A stretch of DNA of 32,000 nucleotides. Origin: Geobacter metallireducens GS-15. Lineage in GTDB: Bacteria > Desulfobacterota > Desulfuromonadia > Geobacterales > Geobacteraceae. The notes under the pieces are model-generated. The model made no database searches. It saw nothing but the letters and a program-made list of their open reading frames with translations, and was not told where the DNA came from. Of the stretch, positions 5,666 to 28,132 are shown one piece after another. The stretch is from the NCBI RefSeq assembly GCF_000012925.1, contig NC_007517.1, forward strand, positions 1,320,001 through 1,352,000, read 5' to 3'. Position 1 is the first letter of the stretch. Every line of letters starts with the position of its first letter. Position numbers and translations under genes: made by a program.

Positions 5666-5687
5666 ACCTACCTCCTTTCGGAACCTC

Positions 5688-13958: not shown

Positions 13959-14075
13959 GCATGCCCTCCTTGGCATATCACATGTTGGCCATCGTGGTGT
14001 TATATGGCAATCGAAACGAATGTGTCCCCGCGGAGAAAGGAGGAGGGCGGGGTGGGGGAAATTCTAATTAACAAA

Positions 14076-14408: not shown

Positions 14409-15968
14409 ATGATGAAGAAAAGGTTGGAACGCTTCGTTTGCTCGCTGTTTATGGTCGTGCTCATGGCGGGATATGGCAATGCCGGGATGATGACAGCTTC
14501 GGCCGCTGGGACTGCTCCCTATAAGGAGGGGGAGTTGATCGTGAAGTACCGGGAGGGAGTTTCCGAGGAAGGGAAGGCGGAGGGGCACCGCAGGCACGGC
14601 TCGGAGAGGAAGAAGGAATTCCGTGACCTCAACATGGAGCAGGTGAAGATCAGACCGGGCCTCGGCGTGGAGAATGCCGTAAAAGAGTTCGAGGCGGACG
14701 ACGATGTGGAGTATGCGGAGCCGAACTATCTGCTGAAGGCCTCGAAAATTCCCACCGACCCGAAGTTCTACAGCACCTGGGGAATGGCGAAGATCAATGC
14801 CCCGGCGGCCTGGGACAATACCACGGGGAGTGCCGGGGTCGTGGTGGCCGTGATCGACAGCGGCGTCGACTACAACCACCCGGACCTAAAGGCCAACATG
14901 TGGATCAACCAGGCGGAACTGAATGGCAAACCGGGAATCGATGACGACGGGGATGGCGTGGTGGACGATATCTACGGGTACAACGGCGTAAACAACAACG
15001 GCAACCCCATGGACAACAACGGTCACGGCACCCACGTGGCCGGCACTATCGGGGCGGTCGGCAATAACGGCATCGGCGTGGCCGGGGTCAACTGGACAGT
15101 CAAGATCATGGCCTGCAAATTCCTGGATGCAAACGGCTCCGGCTACACCTCCGATGCCATTGAGTGTCTACAGTACGTCAAGAAGATGAAATCCCGCGGG
15201 GTGAACATCGTCGCCACCAATAACAGCTGGGGGGGCGGAGGCTATTCGCGGGCGCTCTACGACACCATCAACAGCCAGCGGGATATCCTCTTCATTACCG
15301 CCGCCGGCAACGCCGCTGCCAACAACGACACGACCCCGAGTTATCCCGCGGACTACAACCTGCCGAACATCATCGCTGTTGCCGCCACCACGTCGACGGA
15401 CGGCTTAGCCTCGTTCTCCAATTACGGCCGCCGGACCGTCATGGTGGGAGCGCCCGGGTACTCCATTCTGAGCACCTATCCCAACAACCAGTACGCCTAC
15501 CTCTCCGGCACCTCTATGGCGACCCCCCACGTCACCGGCCTGGCCGCGCTCATCAAGGCCAAGTATCCGACCATGGACTGGCGGGGGATCAAAAACCTCA
15601 TCCTTTCCGGCGGCGACCGCCCGTCGTCGCTGGCCGCCAAGACTGTCACCGGCCGGCGTATCGACGCCTTCGGCTCTCTCACCTGCGTCGACAGCCGCGT
15701 CTTCTCCGCTCTGACATATCCAGCCACCCTCCAGCCTGGTGTGGCAACGACGCTTTCCGCCCTGAGCATCAACTGCTCAAAGCCTGCCGGACCTGTCACG
15801 GTCTCCCTCAGCACCGGTGGGGTCTTGACCATGCGCGATGACGGTGTCTACCCCGATCTGGCAGCAGGGGATGGGATATTCACCGGCTCGTGGACCCCCA
15901 CCGGTACCGCCGAAACCCTCAACTTTTCATCGCCCGTCGGTGCCGAGACAGTAACCGTCGGCAAGTAA
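14409..15968 (+). CDS. Secreted subtilisin-like serine protease (peptidase S8) with an I9-type propeptide
   Basis: The catalytic triad motifs are VAVIDSGVDYNHPDL (Asp), HGTHVAGTIGA (His) and GTSMATPHVTGLAAL (Ser), with the oxyanion Asn in NNSWGG. There is a signal peptide (MMKKRLERFVCSLFMVVLMAGYGNA) and a propeptide-like segment (YKEGELIVKYREG...VEYAEPNY). The RBS is AGGGGAGGA, 5 nt upstream. Confidence 0.9.
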   Translation: MMKKRLERFVCSLFMVVLMAGYGNAGMMTASAAGTAPYKEGELIVKYREGVSEEGKAEGHRRHGSERKKEFRDLNMEQVKIRPGLGVENAVKEFEADDDVEYAEPNYLLKASKIPTDPKFYSTWGMAKINAPAAWDNTTGSAGVVVAVIDSGVDYNHPDLKANMWINQAELNGKPGIDDDGDGVVDDIYGYNGVNNNGNPMDNNGHGTHVAGTIGAVGNNGIGVAGVNWTVKIMACKFLDANGSGYTSDAIECLQYVKKMKSRGVNIVATNNSWGGGGYSRALYDTINSQRDILFITAAGNAAANNDTTPSYPADYNLPNIIAVAATTSTDGLASFSNYGRRTVMVGAPGYSILSTYPNNQYAYLSGTSMATPHVTGLAALIKAKYPTMDWRGIKNLILSGGDRPSSLAAKTVTGRRIDAFGSLTCVDSRVFSALTYPATLQPGVATTLSALSINCSKPAGPVTVSLSTGGVLTMRDDGVYPDLAAGDGIFTGSWTPTGTAETLNFSSPVGAETVTVGK

Positions 15969-16035: not shown

Positions 16036-17790
16036 CTAGCGTACCCCCTCCCAGGTGATGTAGCTGATCTTCATGACGCCGGGGCTGGGGCCGACCGGTT
16101 CCCTGATTTTGAAGGCGGACAGGTTGCCGCGGTTGGTACGGACGCAGACGTTGGCGTTCTCCGGTATCCTTTGGATGGGGATGCGCCGCTGCGTCATCTT
16201 GACTTTCGAGCAGTTTTCATAGGTGGGTTTTTCTCGGGTGAAGCCGAGGGAAGCCCCATTGCGCGGCGTCAGGTAACGCTCCGTCTCCGTTTCCGCCTCG
16301 AACCAGATGTCCGCGTCACCGTTCTGGGCAATGCTCCCTGCATCCAGGTCAAACAGATAAGTCTGGCGAATCTCGCCCCTTCCCTGGGTGATCATCTTCC
16401 CCGCTGTGGGCTCTTCTGCCGTCCTTCCGGCGTCCGGCGGCGCGGCAACCACCAGATCCACCCGTGTCCCGCGCTTTGCCGTGGTTCCACCCCTGATCTT
16501 CTGGTCGAGGATTGTTCCGGGACGCGCCCGGGTCGTCGGTCGCCGGGTCTCGGCCCCCGGCTGCAGTCCCGCATCCACCAGCATCTTCAGGGCGCGTTGC
16601 CGGGGCTGCTTCACCACGTTGGGCACCGTCACCAGTTCCGGTTCCGGGGGCTTTACGGCTACCACCAACCTGACTTTTCTCCCCTGTGCCAGCTTCGAGC
16701 CGGCCTTGGGGGTCTGGCCGATGATCGTGCCCGGCTCTGACGTGTCGGTTTTCCGCTTTTCCACCGTTCCCACCCTCAAGCCGGCTGTTGCAAGGGCAGC
16801 CTTGGCGTCACCGAGGGTTTTCCCGGCCAGTTTCGGCACGGTGACGAGCTTCGGCGGAGGGGGCTCCTGCTGTCCGCCGGGCGGCGGTTCTTCCGGCCGT
16901 TCAGGAGGAACCGCCACGACGAGATTCACCATCGCTCCGGCGGTGACGCTCGTCTCCTCCGGCGGCTCCTGCTGAGTCACTGTCCCCGGTGGGGCTTCGG
17001 GCACAATCTGCCGCACCACCTGGGGGTGCAATCCCTTGACGCGGAGGGCCTCGACGGCCTGCTGCTCCTCCATGCCGGTAACCCGAGGCACAGTGATGGC
17101 TACCGGTTCAGTCTGCCCCTGGCCGGAAGGGGTGGTGGTGCCGGTCGTCGTAACGGGCGGCGATCCCTTGAACAGCTTGACGAAGCTGGTGCGCAACGAT
17201 TCGACGCCGGTGAAGAGCCCCGCCAGCGCCACCACGATTGCGGTGATGGAGCTGATGAGCCAGGCGAGCCGATTCTTCCGTACCGCCGGCACGGCGCCGG
17301 TACCGCCCGGCGCAGCCGCTCCGACCGTCCCCTCCAGCACCCTGCCCAGGGTATCCACCAGTTGCGCCAAGTCCGAGTCCCAGTGGGTGTCGTTGATCTC
17401 GATGGCGTTGCGGCGGGCCAGGAGCTTCAGGTCGTCGGGGAGATCCGCCTCCCCCGGCATGGCCGCATCCTGGACCAGCACCGGAACCACCCGGATGTTC
17501 CGCCGCAGGGCCGTCCCCACTTCCAGGCGGATGAAATCCCGGGGGTCGTCCAGGCGACGCCGGCCCGCCGCGTCGGTACAGTCAATCCACCGCCGGCCGA
17601 TTATTACCAGGAGCACCGCGCAGGAGCCCACGGCCCGGTCGATGGCCTCCACAAAATCAACTCCCGGCTCGATGGCGGAGACGTCCATGAAGACCCGGTC
17701 CCTGCCGAAACGTTCCCGCAGCCGGTCGTAGACCCTGCCGGCGTGGCCGGCACTCTCCTCGCGGCGGTAGCTGATGAATATGCCTTCCAT
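16036..17790 (-). CDS. TIR domain / single TM helix / three PASTA domains / beta-rich C-terminal domain protein (584 aa)
   Basis: The N-terminus is TIR_2-like: IFISYRREESAGHAGRVYDRL...VFMDVSAIEPGVDFVEAIDRAVGSCAVLLVIIGRRW...DFIRLEVGTAL. The TM helix is LAWLISSITAIVVALAGLFTGV (aa about 175-197). Three PASTA-like repeats each start with (I/V)TVP and end with LVVA (aa about 231-450, nt 16441-17100). A roughly 120-aa C-terminal domain of unknown family follows. The RBS is GGAGGAAACCACA before ATG 17790. Confidence 0.85.
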   Translation of the reverse strand: MEGIFISYRREESAGHAGRVYDRLRERFGRDRVFMDVSAIEPGVDFVEAIDRAVGSCAVLLVIIGRRWIDCTDAAGRRRLDDPRDFIRLEVGTALRRNIRVVPVLVQDAAMPGEADLPDDLKLLARRNAIEINDTHWDSDLAQLVDTLGRVLEGTVGAAAPGGTGAVPAVRKNRLAWLISSITAIVVALAGLFTGVESLRTSFVKLFKGSPPVTTTGTTTPSGQGQTEPVAITVPRVTGMEEQQAVEALRVKGLHPQVVRQIVPEAPPGTVTQQEPPEETSVTAGAMVNLVVAVPPERPEEPPPGGQQEPPPPKLVTVPKLAGKTLGDAKAALATAGLRVGTVEKRKTDTSEPGTIIGQTPKAGSKLAQGRKVRLVVAVKPPEPELVTVPNVVKQPRQRALKMLVDAGLQPGAETRRPTTRARPGTILDQKIRGGTTAKRGTRVDLVVAAPPDAGRTAEEPTAGKMITQGRGEIRQTYLFDLDAGSIAQNGDADIWFEAETETERYLTPRNGASLGFTREKPTYENCSKVKMTQRRIPIQRIPENANVCVRTNRGNLSAFKIREPVGPSPGVMKISYITWEGVR

Positions 17791-17879
17791 TGTGGTTTCC
17801 TCCAGTCAGGCGTCGGTGACGGTGAGGTTTGTGGCGGGCATGGCCTCCTTGCTGCGTACCGGTAAAGGTTGGTTCATTA

Positions 17880-17907
17880 AGTATAAACCAGCCTCGCGCG
17901 GCATCAA
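17880..17907 (-). promoter_or_regulatory. Putative sigma70-type promoter of the TIR-PASTA gene
   Basis: The minus strand reads TTGATG (17902-17907), a 16-nt spacer, then TATACT (17880-17885). This is about 90 nt upstream of ATG 17790. Confidence 0.3.
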
Positions 17908-18004: not shown

Positions 18005-19183
18005 CTACCAGTCGTAGGTCATGCTCCGACTGTTGTGTTCGTCGCATGCGCCAACCGTTGAATAGCAGTTCCCTTCTCCGTAATTGGTCGGTGAAGAAGC
18101 CTTTCTGAAACCTTTGAGCACTTGTACCTTCGTCCCGTTTGCCTGGACTGTCCCGTAGGGGGCCGGATCCGTATCGTAACCGATGAGCCGGCTGATGCGG
18201 TATCCGTGGGGAATCTCCACGTGGCAGGAAACGCAGGGGGCTCCATTGAAACGTGTCCCGCCGATAGTCATGGAGTCATGGTGATCTCCCTCTCCGTGGA
18301 CGTTGTTTTCCCACGATCCCCCCGAGTAGATGGGGTGGCAGTTGACACAGAAGAGATCGGTCGACCAGTTGTTGGCGTTGCTTCTGACGTCGCCGAGGGT
18401 CCAGAGCTGGCCGTTTCTGTTGTAGGGCCAGTAGGTGCGGGGTCCCTTGAGGAGGTATTTGGTTGCTCCCGTACTCCCGGTGGGCGGAGCCGCGTGGCAG
18501 TCCGAGCAGACCATTGTCTGGGTTCCCACGTTGGTCCAGCCGAGGCTCATTTGGTTCGAGCGCAACGCCTTGGGTGCATAGGAGCCGGTCTGAGAATTGA
18601 GGGGGACCTGTATGGGGTGTGCCGACCGGTTGTTGGGGTTGAACTCCATGGCCTGGTCGGTGAGCTTGATATTGGAGTGGCTCACGACGGGGCTGACACC
18701 CGTGGTCGCTGGGCCGAAGGCGTTGTACGAGTGACACTTGTAGCAGACCTGATACTGGTTTTGGGCTGGATTGACGAGGGAGAAGGTCATGATCTGGGTC
18801 CAGAGGGGGGCAGTTCCCGGCACGACGCCGGACATGGTCTGCCAGTTGGCGATGTAGAGGCCGTGCTTGTCGAAATGGACCAAGGTCGAATGGCAACTGG
18901 TGCAGTCCCTGAAAGGAGCAAACACATAGGTGTTAGTGACGGGGTCGAGCACCAGCCTGTGGCAGTCCAGGCAATCGAGCCCTTTGGTGGTTATGAGGTT
19001 GTGGTGACGCGTGACATTGTTGCCGCTTGCATGGCAGACACGGCAGTCGGCCATGGTGAGGGCGAGGGCGGCGGCAGGGGAGGTGGCTGTTTCGAGGGTG
19101 ATGGACGAAACTGCCGCCCCGGTCCCCAGGAGCACAAGACAGGCCACTTGGTTCATCCGTTTCAATACTTGGCGAGCATTCAT
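18005..19183 (-). CDS. Multihaem c-type cytochrome (seven CXXCH motifs)
   Basis: The motifs are CRVCH, CLDCH, CTSCH, CYKCH, CSDCH, CVNCH and CVSCH. There is a signal peptide (MNARQVLKRMNQVACLVLLGTGAAVSS). The preferred start is ATG 19183, with GGAAGGAGATCACC upstream. Confidence 0.85.
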   Translation of the reverse strand: MNARQVLKRMNQVACLVLLGTGAAVSSITLETATSPAAALALTMADCRVCHASGNNVTRHHNLITTKGLDCLDCHRLVLDPVTNTYVFAPFRDCTSCHSTLVHFDKHGLYIANWQTMSGVVPGTAPLWTQIMTFSLVNPAQNQYQVCYKCHSYNAFGPATTGVSPVVSHSNIKLTDQAMEFNPNNRSAHPIQVPLNSQTGSYAPKALRSNQMSLGWTNVGTQTMVCSDCHAAPPTGSTGATKYLLKGPRTYWPYNRNGQLWTLGDVRSNANNWSTDLFCVNCHPIYSGGSWENNVHGEGDHHDSMTIGGTRFNGAPCVSCHVEIPHGYRISRLIGYDTDPAPYGTVQANGTKVQVLKGFRKASSPTNYGEGNCYSTVGACDEHNSRSMTYDW

Positions 19184-19226
19184 GGTGATCTCCTTCCATG
19201 GAGTTTGAGAGCTGGTCAAACCACGA

Positions 19227-20204
19227 TTATTTCTGCTTGGATGTTTCTCCGGTCTTGACCGGCTTCCAGGTCTTGTCGGGATCGAACAGCTCCATGGCCT
19301 CTGCCAGACGTCTCGTATTTTTGCCGAGATTTTTCTCGTACACGGTTCCCGCCTGATTGACGATGAAGGTCATGACCCCCGAATTGCCATATTCGGCGGG
19401 ATAGGCAACGAGCGCAAAGCCGAGGATCATCCTTTCCTTGACCACATACTGGTATGCCCCTCCCGCGGCGTGTTTCCCCTGCCCCTTGAGTATCTTGAAG
19501 TAGTAGCCATGGAAGGGGGAAAGGTTGCTTTCCTTTGCGTACCCTTCCTTCGCCGCCCGCGCCACCAGGGGGCCGAGCGGACTCTCGGGTTCGCCCTCCT
19601 TCGCTTCCCAGTACAGGCCGTCCCGTTTCCCTTCGGAACTGATAAGCTTCTGGGCGAATTCAACTTTTCCGCCTCCCCGGCAATCCTTGCCCGCGTATTC
19701 CTGCTGTGCATCCACATAGGCGTCGAGCACATCGATGACGTGCAGTTCGTTCCTGCCTATTCTCCGTTTCAGGATCTCCTTTTTCCCTGTCCCGATATTA
19801 AAGGCCCATTTTCCCCCTTTCTTTACGATCGGTATGGGCATGGGCCAGTTATCCGGGCCAACGTGCAAGACCATGACCGTGGCGGACTTGCGCTCGAGGC
19901 TGTTCATCCGGTCATAGGCCGCAAGGAATTTTTCCCGGTCCGTCTTGTCGGCAACCTCGTCGCCGGACGATATCAGATCCTTGCTGCCGGGACCGAGGAT
20001 GAGCGTCAAATCTCTCTCGTTCCCCTCCCTCACGGCGGCAACCAGGGCTTTCACCGCGTTGTCGGGCGTGGCGAATTTCTTCTGCCGTGTTTGCGCCGCA
20101 AAAGATGGTGTGGATATCACTGAAAAGATCATGGCAACGGCCACGACGCAGGCCCACATCACCCAACCCGTGCCCCCTTTGTGATTCGATGCGCTAACTT
20201 TCAT
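19227..20204 (-). CDS. DUF2950-family secreted protein
   Basis: The hallmark C-terminal segment is FHGYYFKILKGQGKHAAGGAYQYVVKERMILGFALVAYPAEYGNSGVMTFIVNQAGTVYEKNLG (family recalled from memory). There is a signal peptide (VMWACVVAVAMIFSVISTPSFA). The preferred start is ATG 20204, with GGGAGGCACC upstream. The longer ORF-track start overlaps the upstream gene. Confidence 0.8.
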   Translation of the reverse strand: MKVSASNHKGGTGWVMWACVVAVAMIFSVISTPSFAAQTRQKKFATPDNAVKALVAAVREGNERDLTLILGPGSKDLISSGDEVADKTDREKFLAAYDRMNSLERKSATVMVLHVGPDNWPMPIPIVKKGGKWAFNIGTGKKEILKRRIGRNELHVIDVLDAYVDAQQEYAGKDCRGGGKVEFAQKLISSEGKRDGLYWEAKEGEPESPLGPLVARAAKEGYAKESNLSPFHGYYFKILKGQGKHAAGGAYQYVVKERMILGFALVAYPAEYGNSGVMTFIVNQAGTVYEKNLGKNTRRLAEAMELFDPDKTWKPVKTGETSKQK

Positions 20205-20253
20205 GGTGCCTCCCTGTATGCGTGCAACCCTGCTATAACCAAAACAGTCTGTA

Positions 20254-21609
20254 TCAACGTCTACCGCCACCCCGGGAGCCGCCGCCGGATGGCTGTCGTA
20301 TCTCGCCGCCCCGGAAGCCGCCACCGGCAGGCTGTCGTATCTCGCCACCTCTGAAGCCGCCTGAAGGCTGTCTGATCTCTCCCCCAAAACCGCCTCTGGA
20401 CCTTCCCATCGGCGGCGTACCACTCCGGATGCTCATCTCGCCGCGATTGATCGCCCGGCGCTCGAAGGTCCCTTCGCCGACCCCCCTGAAGGGGGTATCC
20501 CGCCCTGCCGGCCGCTGTACCTGTTCCCTCGGTGCCTGTATTCTCGGCGTCACCGTGGTGCCTTCCCGCCGCTCAACCGGAGCCTGCCGGACTGCTGGCC
20601 CTTGTTCCCTCTGCGGCACAACGGCCCGTTCCCTCTGTTCAGGCACGCGCCCGGCAGGCGCCTGTGTGCCCCGCAATCCCGGCCTCACTTGACCCCTGAC
20701 TGGATAGCCGCGTGTTTCCGGCCCGGCCGGTGACACCCGTGTCGGTCTCAGCCCAAAGCGTTCGCCCGTTCGTATGTCCCGATAGGCAACCCCTCTCCTG
20801 TGGACGGGGTTATGGCGCCAGACAGAGCCGCCAAGATCCCGGCTGGTATTGAAACGGTTGAACCGCCTCGTCCGGTCGAAGTCTACGTGGATACGATGGG
20901 AACGCCAGTCGCACCAGGCCCAGGAAAAAATGTTGAAGCTGAAATAGAAGGGAGGGCCGAAGGCGATGTAGCTCAGGCCGAAGGGGTAACTGGTCGGGTA
21001 ATACCAGTAGTAGGGGGGGTAGTCGGGATACCACCACGGGCCATAGATATATGACGGATCATAGACCGGCACATAGATGACTTCCGGGTCAACCGGCTCG
21101 ATCTGGATCTCTCCCTGATCCTCGACAACCTTCTGCTGGCTGGTTGTCTTGAGATTCCCCTGCTGCTCGGCCTTCTGGCGCAATTCCTGGATGGAGGCCA
21201 TGACATCATCTTCCTGGCTCAGAAAGGCATCCCCCAGTTTTCTCGTCTGGTCGAGCTTGTCGCTCAAGGCGAAGAGAACGTCCGGAAAATGGCAGAGCGA
21301 TTTGACGCTGGGATCCCACGGCTTGTTCTGGAGGGCATTGTCCAGTTCGGTCCCTTTCAGCCCCATGTTGTCCCGCCGCCATCGCTCCGCCTCCACTAAT
21401 TCAAGCGGATACGTGGATGCCATCAGCACCTGGGCGATCAATGAATCGGGATACAGGGCGATCGGCGCAAGCATCTGAGTCAGCTCCTGCTTGCTGAACT
21501 TGGCCGCCTGATCGGCTTCCCCTTCCTGCGCCATTGTACCCACCGGCATCGCGAGCATGACGATGACGATACATGCCACCTTCAGGATAGTCATGATTGT
21601 CGCTTTCAT
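20254..21609 (-). CDS. DUF3300-family secreted protein with a Gly/Arg-rich repetitive C-terminus
   Basis: The hallmark segment is LTQMLAPIALYPDSLIAQVLMASTYPLELVEAERW (family recalled from memory), with a signal peptide. The preferred start is ATG 21609 (MKATIM), with GAGGAGAGCTT upstream. Confidence 0.8.
   Translation of the reverse strand: MKATIMTILKVACIVIVMLAMPVGTMAQEGEADQAAKFSKQELTQMLAPIALYPDSLIAQVLMASTYPLELVEAERWRRDNMGLKGTELDNALQNKPWDPSVKSLCHFPDVLFALSDKLDQTRKLGDAFLSQEDDVMASIQELRQKAEQQGNLKTTSQQKVVEDQGEIQIEPVDPEVIYVPVYDPSYIYGPWWYPDYPPYYWYYPTSYPFGLSYIAFGPPFYFSFNIFSWAWCDWRSHRIHVDFDRTRRFNRFNTSRDLGGSVWRHNPVHRRGVAYRDIRTGERFGLRPTRVSPAGPETRGYPVRGQVRPGLRGTQAPAGRVPEQRERAVVPQREQGPAVRQAPVERREGTTVTPRIQAPREQVQRPAGRDTPFRGVGEGTFERRAINRGEMSIRSGTPPMGRSRGGFGGEIRQPSGGFRGGEIRQPAGGGFRGGEIRQPSGGGSRGGGRR
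20270..20395 (-). repeat. Three imperfect tandem coding repeats (about 36-40 nt) encoding GGEIRQP(S/A)GG(G)FR units
   Basis: GGCTGTCGTATCTCGCC recurs at about 20291 and 20331, and a variant, GGCTGTCTGATCTCTCC, occurs at about 20366. The translation is GGEIRQPSGGFRGGEIRQPAGGGFRGGEIRQPSGGGSRGG. Confidence 0.6.
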
Positions 21610-21652
21610 AAGCTCTCCTCTGTTACGTTTCCCGTCCATCCAGCACACCCCT

Positions 21653-24600
21653 TCACGGCGGGCCGGCGTTACCGCGTTCCGTCACTACCGCCTCATACCC
21701 CTTGCGGACCCACATGGCGTTGCTCCCGATGTTCAGCTTCTCCAGACCAGGCGGCGGATCCACTCCCGGGTCGAGGGGGTGGAGCTGCAGTGCCTCCTCC
21801 CCTTTTTCCGTCAGGGCCGTTTCCAGCTCCCACCCCACCCATTTGGACTCGCTGGCGCTCTTGGACCAGAAGAGGAGGAAAAGGTCCCGCTCCCTGATCT
21901 CGTTGTCGAGGCGCGGCTTGAACTCTTCCCCGGGGTTCAGGTCGAGGCAGTCCTGGAAGACATCGATGCCCGCCGCGATCTTGATGGCGTCCACCCGGTC
22001 CAGGACCCGGAGCCGGTCCTTTGAGGAGTAGGAGGCGAAGGCGGTTTTTGCCGGCTCGCCGCTGGCGGTGGCGACTCTCTTCCTCTTCGGCGCGGCGGTT
22101 ATCTCCAGGTCGAGCCGCAGGCGCGCCACGATGATCCCCTCAATGGCCACATCGAACTTGAGGGGGATGGTCCCTTCCTCGGCGCCCTTGGGCACGGTCA
22201 CGTCGAACTCCAGGAGGGACCGCCCCCCCTGCCAGGTGAATTCCTGCTCGGGAGGATCGACGGTGAGCCCCCGGCCCGAAAGCTTGACGGTGACGCGGGT
22301 ATCCCGCTTCCAGCGGCACTCCTGGATGCCGAGCACCGGCTCGGCGGAGGGGGCCAGTTTCGTGAGGAGATCCTGGACCTCCTGCTCCAGGGCCTTTTCG
22401 TAGGCCACGAACCGGGCGGTGAACTCGCTCCCCGGTTTCGCCTGCCGGGGGGCCGAGGCGCCGAGTTGGACTGGCTGCAGCTCTTCGGCCGCATCCGGCA
22501 CGGTGCCGGACATTTTGGGCGCAGGTGCCGGCGGAGGCCCTCCCCCGACGGTTGGAGGAGGCTCGGCTCCGACAGGTGATGGCTCCCCTTGTGACGGCTC
22601 TGATAGCTCAAGTTTTTTCAGCCGGAGGGGGCGGCCGAGAGTAATAGTTGCGTGTGTGTCCACGGATCGCATGTCGTCGGGAGTGAAACGAGCCACTGAA
22701 CCGCCCGCCCGCATCGTCACTATGTCGACTGGCCCGATCCCGCGTTTCTCGTCACCGCTTCCCGCTGCTTCCGCCCCCTCCCGGATTTCCTGCAGGGCCG
22801 CCACGAGCCCCTGTCTTTCGAGATCTTGCGGTACCGATGAGAGTACGTTCTTGAGAAACGCCAGCTGGTCCAGCACCGACTGGAACTGCCGAGGCGATCC
22901 CACATTCTTCGCCCTGGCGTAGTCGTCGATTATGTCCCCGGTATAATCGGCCAGATCCCCGGCGGCCAGGTGCCTGAGGAGGAGACAGTCCACCGGCGTG
23001 GCCGTGTTCCAGAAATCGGGGCTGGCATTGTGCTCTCCCTCCGCCAGTTCCACAGCCTTGTCCACGGCGGATTCGAAATCGGGGGGGAGTTGTTCCTCTC
23101 CGTCCAGCAGGTGGGCCAGGGTCTGGGCCGTCAGGTGATTGACAAGGGGATAGTAGGATGGTTTGCCCCGTTCGAGGCCGAGGGCGTACGCCCGGTAGTA
23201 GTGATCCGCCATGGCATGGAGGGCCGCCTGCTTTTCCGGGACTTCCGTGGCGATCATCATCCGCCGCTTGGCAACGCTCCCCAGAAGCGATAGCCGTTCC
23301 ACGGTCTCGCCCAGGGCGCTGTTCAGCCCCGTCAGCCTCTCTTCCGCCTCGGTGACGAGGTGAAGCGCCTTGGCCGGGTCTGTGGCGGCCAGTTCCTGGG
23401 CCCACCGGGACTGCAGGTTCCAGAGCTGTTCCGCTGTTTTGATGGTGGCAAGCCCCTTGTCGTCGTCGGTGGCCCTCCGGTAGTGATCCACCGCCTCCGC
23501 AAACTGCTTCAGCTCGCCGTAGGCCCGCCCCAGCGCCTCCTGGAGAGTACCGCAGGCGAGCCAGGCCGGCGGAACGCTCTGCTCGATGCCCCGGATGGCC
23601 TTCAGGTGCGCGTCAGCGGCCGGTCCCCGGGAGGTCTTTGCCGCCGCGGCGATGTTCTCAAGGTCGACGATCGCCTCGGAGATTGCGGTGTAGGAGATTC
23701 CGCGGCTGCGGGGAACAGTGGCGCCGTCCCCTTTGCCGAGGGTGAAGTCGGGGTCGCCGTAGCACTGGTAGGCGCCCCACGTGTTAGCTTCGGGGTGGGC
23801 GGCGTAGGTGGCGATGCGGGCCGCGAGCACTGCCTGGCCGAAGGTGCTGCCGGTCAGCATCCCCCGGTAGAACGTGGCGGCAAAGAGGGACGCCGCATCG
23901 TCCTGCACGGCCCAGCCGGCGGCCACCACTCCCCGTACCCCCATCCGGATCAGTTCGGTGGCCACGTTGGCGGCCAGGTTCGGCAGGTTGCGGGGGGGAT
24001 TCCGGTCGTCGATCTTCCCCAGGTGGCAGCAGTTGACGAATACCAGTTGCGGCACCGTGCGCATCTGCCGGATCTGGGCCGCCGTCAGGAACTGGTTCTC
24101 GCCGATGACCATGCCGGTGACGGGGTTCCCCTCGGTCTGCTGGTGGCAGGAGCCGCACGGCACCGGCGGGCGGTAGTCCAGCACGCCGTGCCCGGCCAGG
24201 TGGACGATCCGGTAATCCCGGGCAAAGAGCTCGGTCATGATGGCCGGCCCCGTGGCATCGGAGCCGATGAGGGGGGTTATGGTGTATCCGTAGTTCTTGA
24301 GGGATTTCTCCACCTCCCGGGCCTCCTGCTCGGCAGCGGGGAGGTTGGTGAAGGGGGTGGTGGGGTTGCCGATGACCAAGGCCGTTGCCTCCCGTGCCAT
24401 CACCACCTGTTCGCGGAACCGTTCCACCAGGAGCTGCCGCACCATCCCGGCCTGGACGGCCAGGGGCTTTTCGGCCCGGGCGGTGCTGTCACCCCGCCTG
24501 CGCTCCTGCATCATTTCCCACGGATAGCGGGCCGCCGTGTCGTTCAGCACCAGCACCATGTCCCGGCGGTCAAGGGTGTACTCCTTCAGCTCGTTGGGGA

Positions 24601-27600
24601 CCAGCATCTCGAAGAGGGTCACGGCAACCCCTTCTTCACTGGCGGTGGTTTCCGACATCTCTTCTATGAACCGGTCGGCCAGGCTCCGCTGGGACTGCTG
24701 CAGGTAGACCTCGGCCCGGGCCCGGTCGGTGAGGAGGTTGAAGGAGAGTCGCTCCTCCTCGTCCTCGGTGATCTGGAGCCGCTGCCACCAGGGGTCCTCC
24801 TCGAAGAAGCTGGCCCGGCGCATCCCTCCTTCCAGGGGGATGACAAGGGGGGTGGCGTCGATGTCAAAGGCCCGGGAGATGTCCGGGTCGCTGCGCAACC
24901 GCGCAAGGGTTCTGGCTGCCTGTATGGCCCGGTCCTCGTACAATTCCACGAACTCCACCTCTTCGATTGGGGCGCAGTCGGCGCGGCCCGAATCGGCGAT
25001 GGCGTGGTTGGCGTCGATGATCCCCCGGAGTATGGCGGTCACCGCGTCCTGCACCGAGACGCCGCCGGCGCCGGTTCCAACGAGGAGTGCGCTGATGCCG
25101 GCGGGGCCGGGCGTGCCGCTCCTGACCGGGAGGCATTCGGCCCGCGCGACGGAATAGGCCCGCGCTCCGCGGGAGACGGCCCGCAAGAGCTGTCCCGGGG
25201 AGAGCTCACCCACGCTGCCGAGGCCAATGACGATGGCTCCGGCCGGCTTGCCGTCATTTCGTTGCGACTCCTCCCACGAGAGGTTCAGGAACACCTCGGC
25301 AGTGCCGTCGGCCCCGGGGTATACCCCGAGCTTGTGCCGTGCGCTCAGCCGGCCGTCGAGGGTCCGGTCCAGGTAGGCCTCGGCGCTGATGATGGTGTCA
25401 CCCTTGTAGTGCCCCACCAGGACCGGGTGGCCGGCAAAGGCCAGGTTTCCGTGGCGGACGCTGATCTGAATCTTGCGTTCGGTGCGGCGGGGCCGCTTCG
25501 CGCGTCCGGCCCCTACCGCGGTCCGGGCCAGGTCGGTGAAGTCGGGGTAGAGGGGCTCCTTCTCCGCCGGAAGCTCGAAACGTTCAGGCACGCCGCGGGT
25601 TTCGGGCGGGGCCGTCGGCAGTAGGTCGGTGGTGCCGCGCCGCAAGAGGTCGGTTATAGCGTCGAACCCCTCCTCGGCGCTCGGAAGGTCGCCGTGGGAG
25701 GCCTGCAGGTACCAGGCCTTGACCCCGTCCGGAATGCCGCCCTCCCACGGCACCCTGCCGTCGCCCCGGGGGGTGGCGTGGAAGACCAGCCGCTTCTTCT
25801 CCCCCGTATCCTCGATGGTCAGGTCCACCGGCGTGGCCGGCGCACAGCCGGCGATGTAGAGCATCCGCTGCGGGTCGATGGGGGAGGCGGCCAACTTCTG
25901 CCGGTTGGCGCGGGCCGCTGCCAGCGCGGCGGCGGTGGGGGGCTGCCAGGTGTCGTTTTCCGGGTCGGCGTCCGCCAGGTTCTGCCACGCCCCGGCATCG
26001 AAGAGGTCGAAGCTGGACAGGGCGGGGAGCATCTCCAGGAGGCCGGGAAACTGCGCCACGATGCTGATCAGTTCCCGCTTTCTGCGGGTTATGTCCAGCA
26101 GGGCCAGCTTGCGGATGAGGCTGTCGCGCCCGGTCAGTACCTGGGTCACCGCATGGGAGCCGCCGTTGGGGGTGCCGAGCATGATGAGGCGCGCATCGGC
26201 ACGTTCCTTCATCCGCTCCCACACCTCAGGCCGGGCCACGATCATGGCCCGGGCCACGAGTCCTCCCATGGAGTGGGCCACGATGCTCACCGGCTGTCTG
26301 TTTTTCTCGGTGGCGTCCAGGGCTTTGGTGATGGCGTCGGCGAGGCGGTTCGCCTCATCGAAGAGCGAGAGCCGCCAGTCGAAGGGGAAGGGCTCCACCC
26401 GGTGGGTTATCGCCAGGTGTTTCACCAGGTCGCCGTAGAAGAGCCAGATGGGAGCGTCCGGTTTCACCAGGTTCGGCGTACCGTAGCTCAGGAGCTGCAA
26501 TTTCCCCCGGGCAATGTCGAAGGGATCGAGCCAGATCCGGTTCTCGTCGATGGCCAGGTGGCTCCCCATGATTCCGGGCAGCACGAAGACCACCGGCGCC
26601 ATGTCGGCCACGTCCCGCTTCTCGTAGGGGGGGGTGCCGCTGTCGGTGGCCCGCACCGAAAACGTTTCGAACCCGTCCGCTTCCGAGCCGCTCCGGGAGA
26701 GGGTCCGGGCGAGGCCGTCGGCGCTGTCGGCGTTCTCGAAGTAGCTGAAGTGGTTCACATCGGGCCCGCGCCGGAAGATGAATCCGGACCCGCCGGACCG
26801 CTCACAGCCGCCGAACATGGCCTCGGTGTTCACCACCAGATCGTTGTCGTCCTGGTAGAGGGGGTCTGTCAGGAGAGTGCCGATGGCGCTCAGGACGTTG
26901 CCCCCCTCGATATCCCCGGCGATCACCCGCAGCTCCCCGGCAACGGGGGCCTTGGGCCTGTTCAGGAGCGCCACCAGGGGTGAGGAGGGGATCATGGCCT
27001 CGATTCCCGGCAGCACCGTGGGGTCGGTCCGCTCCTTGGCCACGGCCATGATCAGCTCGCTGAAGATGCTGGTGAAGATCCCGCCGGGAAGCTGGGCAAC
27101 AAAGCCGTACCCCTCCAGGAGGTTGAAGAGGACCGACAGGTAGATGTCGAGCCGCTCCGACGCAAGGGTGGTCCCCCGGGCGGGGCAGGCCACCCGCACG
27201 AATCGCTCGATCTTGAACTGCTTCTCCTTGAGGAGGGTGTTGAGGCGCTCCAGGTCTCCCCGTGCCTTGTCGGGGTTGCGTTCGGCGAAGAACGTCAGGT
27301 CGGCATCGTCGAAGGGGTCGCGCCCCCCCTCCATGCCGGACCGGCAGAGGAGTTCCCCAACCATCCCCCCCCGGGAGTGGGAGACCAGGTGGAGCCGCGC
27401 CCCGGCCGGCAACCGCTCGGCAGCGGCAATGGCGTTGTCGATGGGGTTCTTGGAGAGGGTTTCGTGCTCCAGGCCGAAGACCCGCCCCTCGTAGGGGGTG
27501 AGGAGCTGTTGCCGCTGGGGGCGGCGCTTGTCGGTCCAGAGCTTGCCGAAGCTCCCCGTCGTGGACGAGGCGGTGCCGTGGAGAAAGAGGAGCGACGGGC

Positions 27601-28132
27601 GGTCCGCCGGGAGGTCGAGCACCGCTTCGGAAACCGGCGTGATCGCCAGCTCGTCTCCCGGTAGGAACCGGTGGAGCCCGGGGCCTCGGTTCTCATCCTT
27701 TGTGCCGAGGAGATGGTTCTCCAGCTTCTCCGCGATGAAGCGGGCCGCGTCCGCCGCCACGTCGATGTTGAAGAACTTCAGGGTCTTGATGACGATCTTG
27801 CCGATGAGCCCCCGCGAGGCGCCCCGCCGTTCGATGGCGGCCGGCAGCTCCACCACCCCGTCCGCCCCTCTGGTGCCGGCCAGGCCGAGCAACTCGGTCC
27901 GCAGCCGCTCCTGGGAGGTCCAGAACCGGGTCCCGTCTTCCAGCTCCACCTCCACGATGTCGTCGGGGCGGCTCTCGATCACCGGCGTCTCCGTCCCCCC
28001 GGACCGCGCCGCGCTGATCTGGAAGGTGCGCACCTCTTTGATGGTGATCTGGCCGGTGGTTCCGGGGGGGAGCGGTCCCGTGATTTCCGTGCCGGGGATG
28101 CGGAGTTTGATGGTGGATTTATCTTCGGCCAT
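21653..28132 (-). CDS. Giant multidomain protein (2159 aa): N-terminal unknown domain, alpha/beta-hydrolase, LCAT-like lipase/acyltransferase, CHAT caspase-like protease, helical region, beta-sandwich, C-terminal TIR
   Basis: Domains read from the translation (approximate aa and nt):
- aa 175-470 (nt 26723-27610): alpha/beta hydrolase, LLFLHGTASS...LHLVSHSRGGMVG, nucleophile-elbow Ser about 253.
- aa 510-830 (nt 25643-26605): LCAT/PGAP1-like lipase, VFVLPGIMGS...PFPFDWRLS...VSIVAHSMGGLVARA.
- aa 1245-1465 (nt 23738-24400): CHAT, with the His/Cys dyad in RIVHLAGHGV and LVFVNCCHLG.
- aa 1480-1790: helical, TPR-like region.
- aa 1845-1875: Pro-rich linker.
- aa 1885-2012: beta-sandwich.
- aa 2028-2125 (nt 21758-22051): TIR, AFASYSSKDRLRVLDRV...LFLLFWSKSASESKWVGWELETAL.
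The RBS is GGAGGGAAATACC before ATG 28132. Confidence 0.9.
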   Translation of the reverse strand: MAEDKSTIKLRIPGTEITGPLPPGTTGQITIKEVRTFQISAARSGGTETPVIESRPDDIVEVELEDGTRFWTSQERLRTELLGLAGTRGADGVVELPAAIERRGASRGLIGKIVIKTLKFFNIDVAADAARFIAEKLENHLLGTKDENRGPGLHRFLPGDELAITPVSEAVLDLPADRPSLLFLHGTASSTTGSFGKLWTDKRRPQRQQLLTPYEGRVFGLEHETLSKNPIDNAIAAAERLPAGARLHLVSHSRGGMVGELLCRSGMEGGRDPFDDADLTFFAERNPDKARGDLERLNTLLKEKQFKIERFVRVACPARGTTLASERLDIYLSVLFNLLEGYGFVAQLPGGIFTSIFSELIMAVAKERTDPTVLPGIEAMIPSSPLVALLNRPKAPVAGELRVIAGDIEGGNVLSAIGTLLTDPLYQDDNDLVVNTEAMFGGCERSGGSGFIFRRGPDVNHFSYFENADSADGLARTLSRSGSEADGFETFSVRATDSGTPPYEKRDVADMAPVVFVLPGIMGSHLAIDENRIWLDPFDIARGKLQLLSYGTPNLVKPDAPIWLFYGDLVKHLAITHRVEPFPFDWRLSLFDEANRLADAITKALDATEKNRQPVSIVAHSMGGLVARAMIVARPEVWERMKERADARLIMLGTPNGGSHAVTQVLTGRDSLIRKLALLDITRRKRELISIVAQFPGLLEMLPALSSFDLFDAGAWQNLADADPENDTWQPPTAAALAAARANRQKLAASPIDPQRMLYIAGCAPATPVDLTIEDTGEKKRLVFHATPRGDGRVPWEGGIPDGVKAWYLQASHGDLPSAEEGFDAITDLLRRGTTDLLPTAPPETRGVPERFELPAEKEPLYPDFTDLARTAVGAGRAKRPRRTERKIQISVRHGNLAFAGHPVLVGHYKGDTIISAEAYLDRTLDGRLSARHKLGVYPGADGTAEVFLNLSWEESQRNDGKPAGAIVIGLGSVGELSPGQLLRAVSRGARAYSVARAECLPVRSGTPGPAGISALLVGTGAGGVSVQDAVTAILRGIIDANHAIADSGRADCAPIEEVEFVELYEDRAIQAARTLARLRSDPDISRAFDIDATPLVIPLEGGMRRASFFEEDPWWQRLQITEDEEERLSFNLLTDRARAEVYLQQSQRSLADRFIEEMSETTASEEGVAVTLFEMLVPNELKEYTLDRRDMVLVLNDTAARYPWEMMQERRRGDSTARAEKPLAVQAGMVRQLLVERFREQVVMAREATALVIGNPTTPFTNLPAAEQEAREVEKSLKNYGYTITPLIGSDATGPAIMTELFARDYRIVHLAGHGVLDYRPPVPCGSCHQQTEGNPVTGMVIGENQFLTAAQIRQMRTVPQLVFVNCCHLGKIDDRNPPRNLPNLAANVATELIRMGVRGVVAAGWAVQDDAASLFAATFYRGMLTGSTFGQAVLAARIATYAAHPEANTWGAYQCYGDPDFTLGKGDGATVPRSRGISYTAISEAIVDLENIAAAAKTSRGPAADAHLKAIRGIEQSVPPAWLACGTLQEALGRAYGELKQFAEAVDHYRRATDDDKGLATIKTAEQLWNLQSRWAQELAATDPAKALHLVTEAEERLTGLNSALGETVERLSLLGSVAKRRMMIATEVPEKQAALHAMADHYYRAYALGLERGKPSYYPLVNHLTAQTLAHLLDGEEQLPPDFESAVDKAVELAEGEHNASPDFWNTATPVDCLLLRHLAAGDLADYTGDIIDDYARAKNVGSPRQFQSVLDQLAFLKNVLSSVPQDLERQGLVAALQEIREGAEAAGSGDEKRGIGPVDIVTMRAGGSVARFTPDDMRSVDTHATITLGRPLRLKKLELSEPSQGEPSPVGAEPPPTVGGGPPPAPAPKMSGTVPDAAEELQPVQLGASAPRQAKPGSEFTARFVAYEKALEQEVQDLLTKLAPSAEPVLGIQECRWKRDTRVTVKLSGRGLTVDPPEQEFTWQGGRSLLEFDVTVPKGAEEGTIPLKFDVAIEGIIVARLRLDLEITAAPKRKRVATASGEPAKTAFASYSSKDRLRVLDRVDAIKIAAGIDVFQDCLDLNPGEEFKPRLDNEIRERDLFLLFWSKSASESKWVGWELETALTEKGEEALQLHPLDPGVDPPPGLEKLNIGSNAMWVRKGYEAVVTERGNAGPP

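What the first reader, a model, noticed from the sequence alone, without database searches (positions are those of the whole stretch)
16036..17790. Membrane-spanning TIR-PASTA protein: a cytoplasmic TIR domain wired to three periplasm-facing peptidoglycan-sensor (PASTA) domains
The translation gives a cytoplasmic TIR domain (aa 1-150, Glu context DFIRLEVGTAL), one TM helix, a Thr/Pro linker, three PASTA-like repeats and a roughly 120-aa beta-rich C-terminal domain.

PASTA domains are established muropeptide and beta-lactam binding modules of PknB/PrkC-type kinases and class B PBPs, mainly in Gram-positives. Fusion to a TIR rather than to a kinase or transpeptidase is an architecture I do not know as characterised, least of all in a diderm Geobacter-like genome.

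The inference is an outside-in switch that converts cell-wall damage into TIR activity, meaning NAD+ depletion or nucleotide signalling. Such damage could come from phage lysins, predation or antibiotics.

The gene has its own putative promoter and lies 4 kb from the second TIR protein in the window.
Basis: partly seen in the sequence, partly recalled or inferred. Interest (0 to 1): 0.75.

Follow-up and report, generated by a model that had tools for sequence, protein, structure and literature searches.

The report
Membrane TIR receptor with PASTA ectodomain
A Geobacter inner-membrane protein joins a SARM1-like TIR enzyme domain in the cytoplasm to peptidoglycan-sensor-type PASTA domains in the periplasm, and its relatives usually sit inside a cluster of cell-death/immunity genes, so it is probably an envelope-facing input to a bacterial immune pathway, although nobody has tested this.

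Summary
ORF 16036-17790 (minus strand, 584 aa) encodes:
- a TIR_2 domain;
- one TM helix;
- a Thr/Pro linker;
- three PASTA domains;
- a 120-aa all-beta domain with no Pfam model.

The protein is 100% identical to a Geobacter metallireducens "PASTA domain containing protein". The TIR is SARM1-like. Glu90 aligns with the SARM1 catalytic Glu642 and is invariant in 120 relatives. Charge bias puts the TIR inside the cell.

The architecture is not unique. More than 100 protein clusters share TIR-TM-PASTA(1-5), and the same TIR subfamily carries other envelope ectodomains.

The main correction is that this is not a solo gene. In 19 of 29 non-redundant loci a TPR-S protein lies within 10 kb. In 15 of 29 that protein is the giant DUF7379-CHAT-TPR-S protein, which is the "second TIR protein" of this window. 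Patatin, caspase-like peptidases and further TIRs often accompany it. The reverse link is weak: only 6 of 80 giants have a TIR-PASTA neighbour.

Best reading: a facultative, periplasm-facing TIR input module of a Thoeris-like TIR-to-TPR-S system. The ligand, the enzymatic product and any defence role are all inferred. I rate it a new variant of a known kind.

The parts
16036..17790 (-). Whole gene: TIR - TM - PASTA x3 - C-terminal beta domain (584 aa plus stop codon)
   Evidence: ORF. Pfam TIR_2 and PASTA. 100% identical to a G. metallireducens protein. AF2 model with mean pLDDT 83.
17341..17790 (-). Cytoplasmic SARM1-like TIR domain (aa 1-150). The catalytic-position Glu90 codon is at 17521-17523.
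   Evidence: TIR_2, E 1.1e-12. The best PDB sequence hits are all SARM1 TIR, and E90 aligns with E642 in WVHKEIVTAL. Foldseek gives a TM-score of 0.83-0.86 (normalised by target length) and rmsd 2.4-3.0 A to SARM1 TIR. E90 is invariant in 120/120 relatives.
17203..17271 (-). Single transmembrane helix (aa ~174-196), N-in/C-out
   Evidence: Hydropathy peak. Modelled as helix 174-193. Positive-inside bias across 118 relatives.
16906..17100 (-). PASTA domain 1 (aa ~231-295), preceded by a Thr/Pro linker (aa 205-230)
   Evidence: alpha + 3-4 beta elements, pLDDT above 90.
16651..16851 (-). PASTA domain 2 (aa ~314-380), preceded by a Pro/Glu linker (aa 296-313)
   Evidence: This is the best Pfam stretch, aa 316-378 matching profile positions 1-63 of 64. 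Foldseek matches to PrkC 3py9 (E 5e-15) and to PknB PASTA.
16438..16638 (-). PASTA domain 3 (aa ~385-451)
16039..16404 (-). C-terminal all-beta extracytoplasmic domain (aa ~463-584) with two invariant Cys (C527, C549). No Pfam model covers it.
   Evidence: No Pfam hit and no PDB sequence hit. Family alignment A1 gives the invariant residues. AF2 pLDDT 90. Only a weak HmuY-like fold match, E 2e-3, TM-score normalised by query length 0.58. The same domain stands alone behind signal peptides in other bacteria.
17798..17907 (-). Translation and possible transcription signals: GGAGGA SD at 17798-17803; promoter-like TTGATG-16-TATACT at 17907-17880
   Evidence: The promoter match is consensus-only and weak.
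21653..28132 (-). Recurrent partner gene: 2159-aa protein with DUF7379 (lipase-like alpha/beta hydrolase, 3 matched stretches), CHAT (caspase-like), TPR-S and a C-terminal ThsB-like TIR
   Evidence: Pfam. PADLOC ThsB-type TIR hits. The TIR carries WVGWELETAL. Invariant Ser motifs S253/S621 and CHAT residues H1315 and C1368-1369 in 11 orthologues. Found next to TIR-PASTA genes in 15 of 29 non-redundant loci.

Best explanation
**What it is.** The gene encodes a bitopic inner-membrane receptor. Three PASTA domains and a small beta domain sit in the periplasm on flexible Pro/Thr linkers. A catalytically competent SARM1-like TIR domain sits in the cytoplasm.

**Proposed mechanism**
1. The ectodomain binds an envelope-derived cue, most plausibly peptidoglycan fragments or lipid II released when the wall is breached.
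2. Binding clusters the receptor, and clustering lets the TIR domains assemble into an active NAD+-cleaving oligomer. PASTA kinases and SARM1 are each switched on by self-association in the same way.
3. The NAD+-derived product is read by TPR-S domains of the co-clustered proteins. In this window that is the 2159-aa DUF7379-CHAT-TPR-S-TIR protein.
4. Those proteins unleash caspase-like protease and lipase activities, giving growth arrest or cell death.

The protein is thus a facultative, periplasm-facing input module of a Thoeris-like TIR-to-TPR-S conflict system.

**Shown here:** the domain composition, the topology, the conserved catalytic Glu, and the gene-neighbourhood association.

**Inferred:** the ligand, activation by clustering, the chemical product, the coupling to TPR-S, and any immune role.
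For: **Architecture and topology:**

**TIR competence**
- SARM1 TIR is the closest solved structure, and E90 aligns with the catalytic E642.
- E90 is invariant in 120/120 relatives. The TIR is far more conserved than the ectodomain: mean pairwise identity is 73% for the TIR against 38-42% for the PASTA domains. That is the pattern of a fixed signalling module with a variable sensor.

**Ectodomain**
- The PASTA region superposes on the PrkC and PknB ectodomains.
- The C-terminal domain occurs elsewhere behind signal peptides, so it is extracytoplasmic.

**Receptor family**
- Nearly all members of this TIR subfamily are TIR-TM-X, where X can be FGE-sulfatase, PD40 propeller, PG_binding_1 or TonB_C.

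**Context**
- 19 of 29 non-redundant TIR-PASTA loci have a TPR-S gene within 10 kb. The figure is 5 of 52 for the same TIR subfamily without PASTA (Fisher p = 2e-7).
- The recurring order is TPR-S / patatin / TIR-PASTA / C14 or C11 peptidase / DUF7379-CHAT-TPR-S / TIR.
- In one Geobacter MAG the giant gene and the TIR-PASTA gene are directly adjacent (L021; L091).
- The patatin neighbour resembles the CBASS signal-activated lipase.

**Precedent**
- Type VIII Thoeris: a TIR makes cADPR, which activates an effector carrying the TPR domain that Aravind's group predicted as a sensor (bioRxiv 10.64898/2025.12.03.692087).
- Type IV Thoeris: a TIR signal activates a caspase-like protease (bioRxiv 10.1101/2024.10.24.620036; abstract).
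- TPR-centred assemblies with TIR, patatin, TM and caspase partners have been catalogued (bioRxiv 10.1101/2023.05.26.542521).
Against: - No ligand, enzymatic or genetic data exist for any member of the family.
- The coupling is facultative. 10 of 29 TIR-PASTA loci have no TPR-S neighbour, and only 6 of 80 giant loci carry a TIR-PASTA gene.
- Many giant loci show no TIR that my models can detect, so TPR-S may read something other than a TIR product.
- In this window the two genes are separated by three unrelated genes (DUF3300, DUF2950, multihaem cytochrome). A further 214-nt gap carries a promoter-like site.
- The giant has its own TIR with the catalytic-position Glu. That TIR could be the real signal generator.
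- The BcTir/Tpr preprint reports that the TPR protein, not the TIR protein, made the cADPR isomer. Who generates the signal in TPR systems is therefore not settled.
- From my own knowledge, not tested here: some PASTA domains do not bind muropeptides.
- My neighbourhood HMMs were built from loci in this same set. The domain names, however, came independently from Pfam.
Confidence: 0.45

Rival explanations
1. A stand-alone suicide effector. The protein senses wall damage and itself kills or arrests the cell by depleting NAD+, with no downstream partner. Its position near the CHAT-TPR-S gene is only defence-island clustering.
For: - The SARM1-like TIR with an invariant Glu could deplete NAD+ on its own, as SARM1 does.
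- 10 of 29 loci have no TPR-S neighbour, for example L006 and L030.
- The gene has its own SD and a promoter-like site.
Against: - The neighbours are specific and repeated, on the same strand and tightly spaced. They recur in MAGs labelled Geobacteraceae, Gallionellaceae/Nitrosomonadales, Chloroflexota and Pedobacter, even though TIR-PASTA identity falls to about 42-48%.
- The enrichment over non-PASTA members of the same TIR subfamily has p = 2e-7.
Confidence: 0.2
2. A TIR scaffold or adaptor. The TIR mainly recruits the cluster's soluble TIR proteins to the membrane through TIR-TIR assembly, as in TLR-adaptor signalling. The PASTA domains anchor or localise the complex on peptidoglycan or at sites of wall synthesis.
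For: - The clusters hold several TIR proteins.
- The soluble "TIR525" partner has an N-terminal TIR 31% identical to the TIR of TIR-PASTA. Its C-terminal half is 70% identical to the C-terminus of the window's giant.
- The iSTAND systems described by Kaur et al. use TM plus PASTA as peptidoglycan-associating modules (PMC7159879).
Against: An invariant catalytic-position Glu and very strong TIR conservation are more than a scaffold would need. No interaction data exist.
Confidence: 0.15
3. Housekeeping envelope signalling. The protein would be a TIR-based analogue of PknB/PrkC that tunes growth, division or dormancy to peptidoglycan precursor status, unrelated to conflict or immunity.
For: - The ectodomain most resembles those of PASTA kinases.
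- One close homologue (L006) sits among ordinary genes such as PmbA and RsgA.
Against: - The family is rare and patchy: 188 matching stretches in 185,579 species genomes.
- The flanks vary between the two Geobacter species.
- The usual neighbours are caspase-like, patatin and TIR genes, which are typical of cell-death systems.
Confidence: 0.1

Closest known systems
TPR-S-centred TIR systems (predicted by Burroughs & Aravind 2020, J Bacteriol; not readable here) and type VIII Thoeris (TIR makes cADPR, which activates ThsI carrying the TPR)
   Same: A TIR protein with the catalytic Glu is encoded beside proteins carrying the Pfam TPR-S domain and cell-killing enzymes such as patatin and caspase-like peptidases.
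   Different: - Here the TIR is a membrane receptor with a periplasmic PASTA ectodomain rather than a soluble ThsB.
- The TPR-S protein is a 1,800-2,200-aa DUF7379-CHAT fusion, not a CMP-hydrolase.
- The system matches no PADLOC or NCBIfam system model.
- Whether the 2020 paper lists a PASTA partner could not be checked.
Type IV Thoeris (TIR makes N7-cADPR, which activates a caspase-like protease)
   Same: A TIR plus a caspase-family protease in one locus (abstract).
   Different: The protease here is a CHAT domain inside a giant multi-enzyme protein with a TPR-S domain. The TIR subfamily also differs. No signal molecule is known.
PASTA Ser/Thr kinases (PknB, PrkC, Stk1/StkP)
   Same: The layout is the same: a cytoplasmic signalling domain, one TM helix and 3-4 extracytoplasmic PASTA domains. 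The ectodomain is the best structural match (3py9, E 5e-15).
   Different: There is no kinase domain. The NCBIfam PknB_PASTA_kin model matches only profile positions 363-496 and scores 110 bits against a cut-off of 450. The hosts are diderms. The C-terminal domain also differs.
SARM1 / TIR-1 TIR NADase
   Same: This is the closest solved TIR by both sequence and fold. The catalytic Glu aligns and F86 corresponds to W638.
   Different: Identity is about 20-22%. There are no ARM or SAM domains. The protein is membrane-anchored and its activity is untested.
Toll-like receptors
   Same: The logic is the same: an extracellular pattern-binding domain, one TM helix and a cytoplasmic TIR.
   Different: The polarity is reversed, with the TIR at the N-terminus. 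The ectodomain is PASTA, not LRR. The TIR looks enzymatic rather than purely adaptor-type. The resemblance is an analogy, not homology of the whole protein.
iSTAND ternary conflict systems with TM-PASTA modules (Kaur et al. 2020, PMC7159879)
   Same: PASTA domains follow a TM segment in predicted conflict systems of Gram-negative bacteria.
   Different: In those systems the PASTA is fused to a vWA component with MoxR and iSTAND partners. No such partners were identified in this window.

Membership tests
TIR domain (Pfam TIR_2), enzymatic class | Profile match above the curated threshold | tested here: met
   48.9 bits against a cut-off of 28; aa 4-145 cover profile positions 1-122 of 122.
TIR domain (Pfam TIR_2), enzymatic class | Catalytic glutamate at the SARM1 E642 position | tested here: met
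   E90 aligns with E642 and is invariant in 120/120 relatives.
TIR domain (Pfam TIR_2), enzymatic class | NAD+ cleavage or cyclisation activity | not testable with these tools
   This needs a biochemical assay.
PASTA domain | Profile match and alpha+beta PASTA fold, located outside the cytoplasm | tested here: met
   136 bits against a cut-off of 23.2, in three stretches. Foldseek matches to PrkC and PknB PASTA. N-in topology.
PASTA domain | Binding of muropeptide, lipid II or beta-lactam | not testable with these tools
   Ligand-contact residues were not mapped. A binding assay is needed.
PASTA Ser/Thr kinase (PknB/PrkC/Stk1) | Cytoplasmic Hanks-type kinase domain | tested here: not met
   No Pkinase hit. 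The NCBIfam equivalog matched only its PASTA part and scored 110 bits against a cut-off of 450.
Class B PBP with PASTA (PBP2x/SpoVD) | Transpeptidase domain | tested here: not met
   No transpeptidase hit. The SpoVD model scored E 0.78 over the PASTA region only.
Thoeris-type TIR signalling system | A TIR gene linked to a gene whose product has a signal-binding domain fused to an effector | tested here: met
   TPR-S with CHAT and alpha/beta-hydrolase domains lies 3.9 kb away on the same strand. The linkage recurs in 19 of 29 loci. That TPR-S binds a signal comes from the literature and is an inference.
Thoeris-type TIR signalling system | Membership of a defined Thoeris type (ThsA/ThsB models) | tested here: not met
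   Only sub-threshold ThsB/ThcB4 TIR matches were found: 38.5 bits against a cut-off of 220, and a PADLOC ThsB hit at E 6e-8 over aa 4-63.
Thoeris-type TIR signalling system | Infection-dependent signal production and phage protection | not testable with these tools
   This needs experiments.
SARM1 family | ARM-SAM-TIR architecture | tested here: not met
   Only the TIR domain matches. The rest of the protein is TM, PASTA and the C-terminal domain.

The most novel reading that the evidence does not exclude
This would be a bacterial counterpart of a Toll-like receptor. A periplasmic pattern-recognition ectodomain detects peptidoglycan breakdown at the moment the envelope is breached by a phage tail lysin, a contact-dependent toxin or a predator. 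It transmits that across the membrane to an enzymatic TIR. The TIR's NAD+-derived messenger then switches on a caspase-like/lipase executioner through a TPR-S sensor. That would make it the first outside-in, envelope-sensing input described for a Thoeris-like pathway. The wider TIR-TM-X family would then be a repertoire of envelope surveillance receptors.
Probability: 0.25. Interest if true: 0.85.

Novelty: new variant of a known kind. Interest (0 to 1): 0.62.

Why it matters
In the Thoeris studies read here, the TIR proteins produce their signal only after phage infection; from my own knowledge, the triggers identified so far are cytoplasmic. A TIR wired to periplasmic PASTA domains would extend TIR immunity to surveillance of the cell envelope. 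It would also give a concrete, testable link between peptidoglycan sensing and NAD+-derived signalling.

The system offers a simple way to ask what the TPR-S domain reads. That domain is shared with the animal ASK signalosome, according to the Pfam family name and my recollection of Burroughs & Aravind 2020.

The work also gives a family definition (TIR-TM-variable ectodomain) and a recurrent gene cluster. Both could be added to defence-system catalogues, which currently do not recognise them.

Tried and rejected
- **C-terminal domain identity.** Neither Pfam nor NCBIfam reports a match over this domain, and there was no PDB sequence hit. Foldseek gave only a weak HmuY-like match (E 2e-3, TM-score normalised by query length 0.58), and the family has no invariant His to suggest haem binding. 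I therefore do not call it a haem domain. The viral structure library gave nothing significant.
- **Are the two TIRs of the window recent paralogues?** No. BLASTP gives E 0.06.
- **Pseudogene remnants.** I searched the window for remnants of patatin, C14/C11, short TPR-S and the polytopic "unk570" gene. None was found.
- **Known defence systems.** PADLOC matched only generic PASTA-kinase (PD-T4-6), ThsB, phospholipase and caspase models, and no system.
- **Literature.** Burroughs & Aravind 2020 (PMC7685563) could not be opened. What I say about it rests on my memory and on how later papers cite it. The two eLife papers by Kaur et al. do not use the term "TPR-S".
- **Obligate pairing with the giant.** Rejected, because only 6 of 80 giant loci carry a TIR-PASTA gene.
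- **The two large unannotated ORFs downstream** (9456-13976 and 5688-9443). No Pfam, NCBIfam or PDB hit. I found no evidence that they belong to the system.
Full report
**1. What is in the sequence**

The finding's coordinates hold one ORF on the minus strand, 16036-17790, encoding 584 aa from an ATG. A GGAGGA ribosome-binding site lies 8 nt upstream. Pfam gives TIR_2 over aa 4-145 (E 1.1e-12) and PASTA in three copies (E 3.3e-40).

Hydropathy shows a single membrane helix starting near aa 174. An AlphaFold2 model built on 31 relatives has mean pLDDT 83. It shows a TIR fold, a helix at 174-193, disordered Thr/Pro and Pro/Glu linkers, three PASTA units and a C-terminal all-beta domain.

The protein is 100% identical to a Geobacter metallireducens protein annotated only as "PASTA domain containing protein".

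**2. The TIR domain**

The only solved structures found by sequence are SARM1 and TIR-1 TIR domains (E 6e-4). The alignment places E90, in the motif DFIRLEVGTAL, on the SARM1 catalytic E642 in DWVHKEIVTAL. It places F86 on W638.

Foldseek agrees. All top TIR matches are SARM1 or TIR-1, with a TM-score (normalised by target length) of 0.83-0.86 and rmsd 2.4-3.0 A; a SPARTA TIR follows. E90 is invariant in all 120 closest relatives.

Mean pairwise identity in the family is 73% for the TIR but only 38-42% for the PASTA domains and 39% for the C-terminal domain. The cytoplasmic domain is thus under much tighter constraint than the ectodomain.

**3. Topology and ectodomain**

There is no N-terminal signal peptide. 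In 118 relatives the 15 residues before the helix carry 3.4 Lys+Arg on average, against 1.9 after it. The N-side count is higher in 91 relatives and lower in 2. This puts the TIR in the cytoplasm and the PASTA domains in the periplasm.

The PASTA region superposes on the whole ectodomain of S. aureus PrkC (3py9, E 5e-15) and on PknB PASTA domains.

The last ~120 residues have no Pfam or PDB sequence match. They form a confident beta structure (pLDDT 90) with invariant DLD, two invariant Cys and a C-terminal Trp. The only fold resemblance is a weak one to HmuY-like proteins (E 2e-3, TM-score normalised by query length 0.58). I do not treat that as functional evidence.

The same domain occurs alone behind signal peptides or a lipobox in ~220-aa proteins, including one from Candidatus Rhodobacter oscarellae and one from Oricola sp. 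It occurs in tandem in a Chloroflexi protein and together with CARDB. It is therefore an independent extracytoplasmic module.

**4. The family**

Nearly all of the 120 best database hits are TIR (1-150) - TM (~175-195) - PASTA (one to five copies) - variable C-terminus. About half carry the C-terminal domain seen here. Others carry Lcl_C, CarboxypepD_reg, TPR or nothing.

The MAG hosts are labelled Geobacteraceae, Gallionellaceae/Nitrosomonadales, Desulfobacterales, Methylomirabilota, Acidobacteriota, Chloroflexota and others.

The same TIR subfamily (55-62% identity over the TIR) is almost always followed by a TM helix and then other ectodomains. These include FGE-sulfatase, PD40 propellers, PG_binding_1, TonB_C, and many with no Pfam match. 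TIR-PASTA is thus one large branch of a TIR-TM-ectodomain receptor-like family.

**5. Genomic context: the main new point**

Homologues fetched with their flanks repeatedly sit in one kind of cluster. The usual gene order is:
1. a short (~220 aa) or long (~650 aa) TPR-S protein;
2. a patatin phospholipase related to the CBASS lipase;
3. sometimes a polytopic membrane protein of ~570 aa, or another TIR protein;
4. the TIR-PASTA gene;
5. a C14 or C11 peptidase;
6. a 1,780-2,180-aa DUF7379-CHAT-TPR-S protein;
7. a further TIR protein.

After collapsing near-identical loci, 19 of 29 TIR-PASTA loci have a TPR-S gene within 10 kb and 15 of 29 have the giant protein. The control is the same TIR subfamily without PASTA, where the figure is 5 of 52 (Fisher p = 2e-7).

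The "second TIR protein" of this window is exactly that giant, with DUF7379 (three matched stretches), CHAT, TPR-S and TIR_2. In 11 orthologues the lipase-type Ser motifs and the CHAT His/Cys are invariant. Its C-terminal ~280 residues are 70% identical to the C-terminal half of a separate two-TIR protein in a Sulfuricella cluster.

In another Geobacter MAG the giant and the TIR-PASTA gene are directly adjacent (L021; L091). In G. metallireducens and G. hydrogenophilus three co-directional genes (DUF3300, DUF2950 and a multihaem cytochrome) are inserted between them.

**6. The reverse test**

Starting from the giant, a metagenome scan found at least 342 relatives. Only 6 of the 80 loci kept carry a TIR-PASTA gene. 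The commonest partner is a C14/C11 peptidase just upstream. Many loci show no TIR detectable with my models.

The CHAT-TPR-S protein is therefore the widespread core, and TIR-PASTA is a facultative add-on. From my own knowledge, Thoeris loci show a similar pattern of variable TIR (ThsB) genes around a conserved effector. The asymmetry equally allows TIR-PASTA to be an extra effector.

**7. Mechanism**

Established elsewhere:
- TIR proteins of Thoeris systems make NAD+-derived messengers.
- In type VIII the messenger is canonical cADPR. The effector carries the TPR domain that Aravind's group had predicted as the sensor.
- In type IV a TIR signal activates a caspase-like protease.
- From general knowledge, PASTA kinases and SARM1 are both activated by self-association.

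Putting these together, I propose the following chain. An envelope-derived ligand binds the periplasmic PASTA/beta-domain module. The receptor clusters and the TIR oligomer becomes active. It makes an NAD+-derived product, which TPR-S reads. CHAT, lipase and patatin effectors then fire.

Only the parts list, the topology, the catalytic residue and the gene association are shown here. Everything else is inference, and I give the whole chain 0.45.

The rivals are:
- a self-sufficient NAD+-depleting suicide switch (0.2);
- a TIR scaffold that recruits the cluster's soluble TIRs to the membrane (0.15);
- housekeeping wall signalling (0.1).

**8. Comparison with the known**

By layout the protein works like a PASTA kinase, but it fails that family's defining test because it has no kinase domain. 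Its TIR is SARM1-like, but the protein is not a SARM1 family member.

The locus fits the logic of Thoeris and TPR-S systems but matches no defined type. PASTA behind a TM helix has been noted in a different predicted conflict system, iSTAND.

No paper in the held library combines "PASTA domain" with "NADase". I could not read the 2020 J Bacteriol paper that defined TPR-S, so a prior computational mention of this partner cannot be excluded.

**9. Verdict**

This is a real, intact and conserved gene. The gene is not a unique oddity. It is a member of a sizeable uncharacterised family and a recurrent accessory of a caspase-like/TPR-S cluster.

I rate it a new variant of a known kind, with interest 0.62. 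It is experimentally tractable, and if it does sense the envelope, it would add an envelope-sensing mode to bacterial TIR immunity.

Noticed in passing
window 16039-16404 (-); also P0121-P0210: The C-terminal ~120-aa beta domain is an unmodelled domain family. Its motifs are QTY.FDLD.G, ADIWF.A, RYL.PRNGA, C...CVRTN.G, GPSPG and a C-terminal W. It also occurs as secreted ~220-aa stand-alone proteins (for example in Candidatus Rhodobacter oscarellae and Oricola sp.), in tandem in a Chloroflexi protein, and fused to CARDB.
   Followed up: partly
window 21653-28132 (-): A 2159-aa protein with lipase-like DUF7379 domains, a CHAT protease, TPR-S and a ThsB-like TIR. The catalytic-type Ser, His and Cys residues are invariant in 11 orthologues. 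The family has at least 342 metagenomic relatives, usually preceded by a C14/C11 peptidase gene. No PADLOC system model recognises it.
   Followed up: partly
L001 6295-7986; L002 6227-7948; L017 3716-5314; L028 5107-6813; many of L092-L169: A ~530-580-aa protein with 8-9 predicted TM helices and a conserved ~200-aa cytoplasmic C-terminal domain. It has no Pfam, NCBIfam or PADLOC hit. It recurs next to TIR-PASTA or the giant CHAT-TPR-S gene and may be a membrane effector. It is present in G. hydrogenophilus but absent from this window.
   Followed up: partly
L036-L090 (for example L067, L058, L050, L090): The same highly conserved TIR subfamily is followed by a TM helix and other ectodomains (FGE-sulfatase, PD40 beta-propeller, PG_binding_1, TonB_C, many unknown). 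These are mostly in Acidobacteriota and Actinomycetota and usually lack TPR-S neighbours.
   Followed up: partly
window 18005-21648 (-): Three co-directional genes sit between the giant gene and TIR-PASTA: DUF3300, DUF2950 and a 404-aa multihaem cytochrome. The same three lie there in G. hydrogenophilus, but they are absent from the cluster in other taxa. The start of the DUF2950 ORF as listed overlaps the DUF3300 ORF by ~170 nt, so the real start is probably further downstream.
   Followed up: no
window 9456-13976 (-) and 5688-9443 (-): Two very large ORFs (1506 and 1251 aa) in a 67-71% GC stretch have no Pfam, NCBIfam or PDB sequence match. ORF 4703-6268 overlaps the second by ~580 nt on the same strand, so one of the two calls is doubtful.
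   Followed up: partly
window 14409-15968 (+): An S8 subtilase with a fervidolysin-type prodomain and a signal-peptide-like N-terminus converges on the TIR-PASTA gene; the stop codons are 67 nt apart. It is not conserved next to homologues elsewhere. G. hydrogenophilus has Toprim, radical SAM, antitoxin and RHS-toxin genes there instead, so TIR-PASTA lies at the edge of a variable region.
   Followed up: partly
window 28163-29710 (-) and 29928-30632 (-): A 515-aa pentapeptide-repeat protein ends 30 nt upstream of the giant CHAT-TPR-S gene on the same strand. A Prok-JAB-like protein lies further upstream. I did not examine whether they belong to the system.
   Followed up: no
L008 16405-17985 (also L010, L025, L094): A ~525-aa soluble protein has two TIR domains. 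The N-terminal TIR is related to the TIR of TIR-PASTA (31% identity). The C-terminal half is 70% identical to the C-terminus of the Geobacter giant. This shows gene fusion or fission within the cluster.
   Followed up: partly
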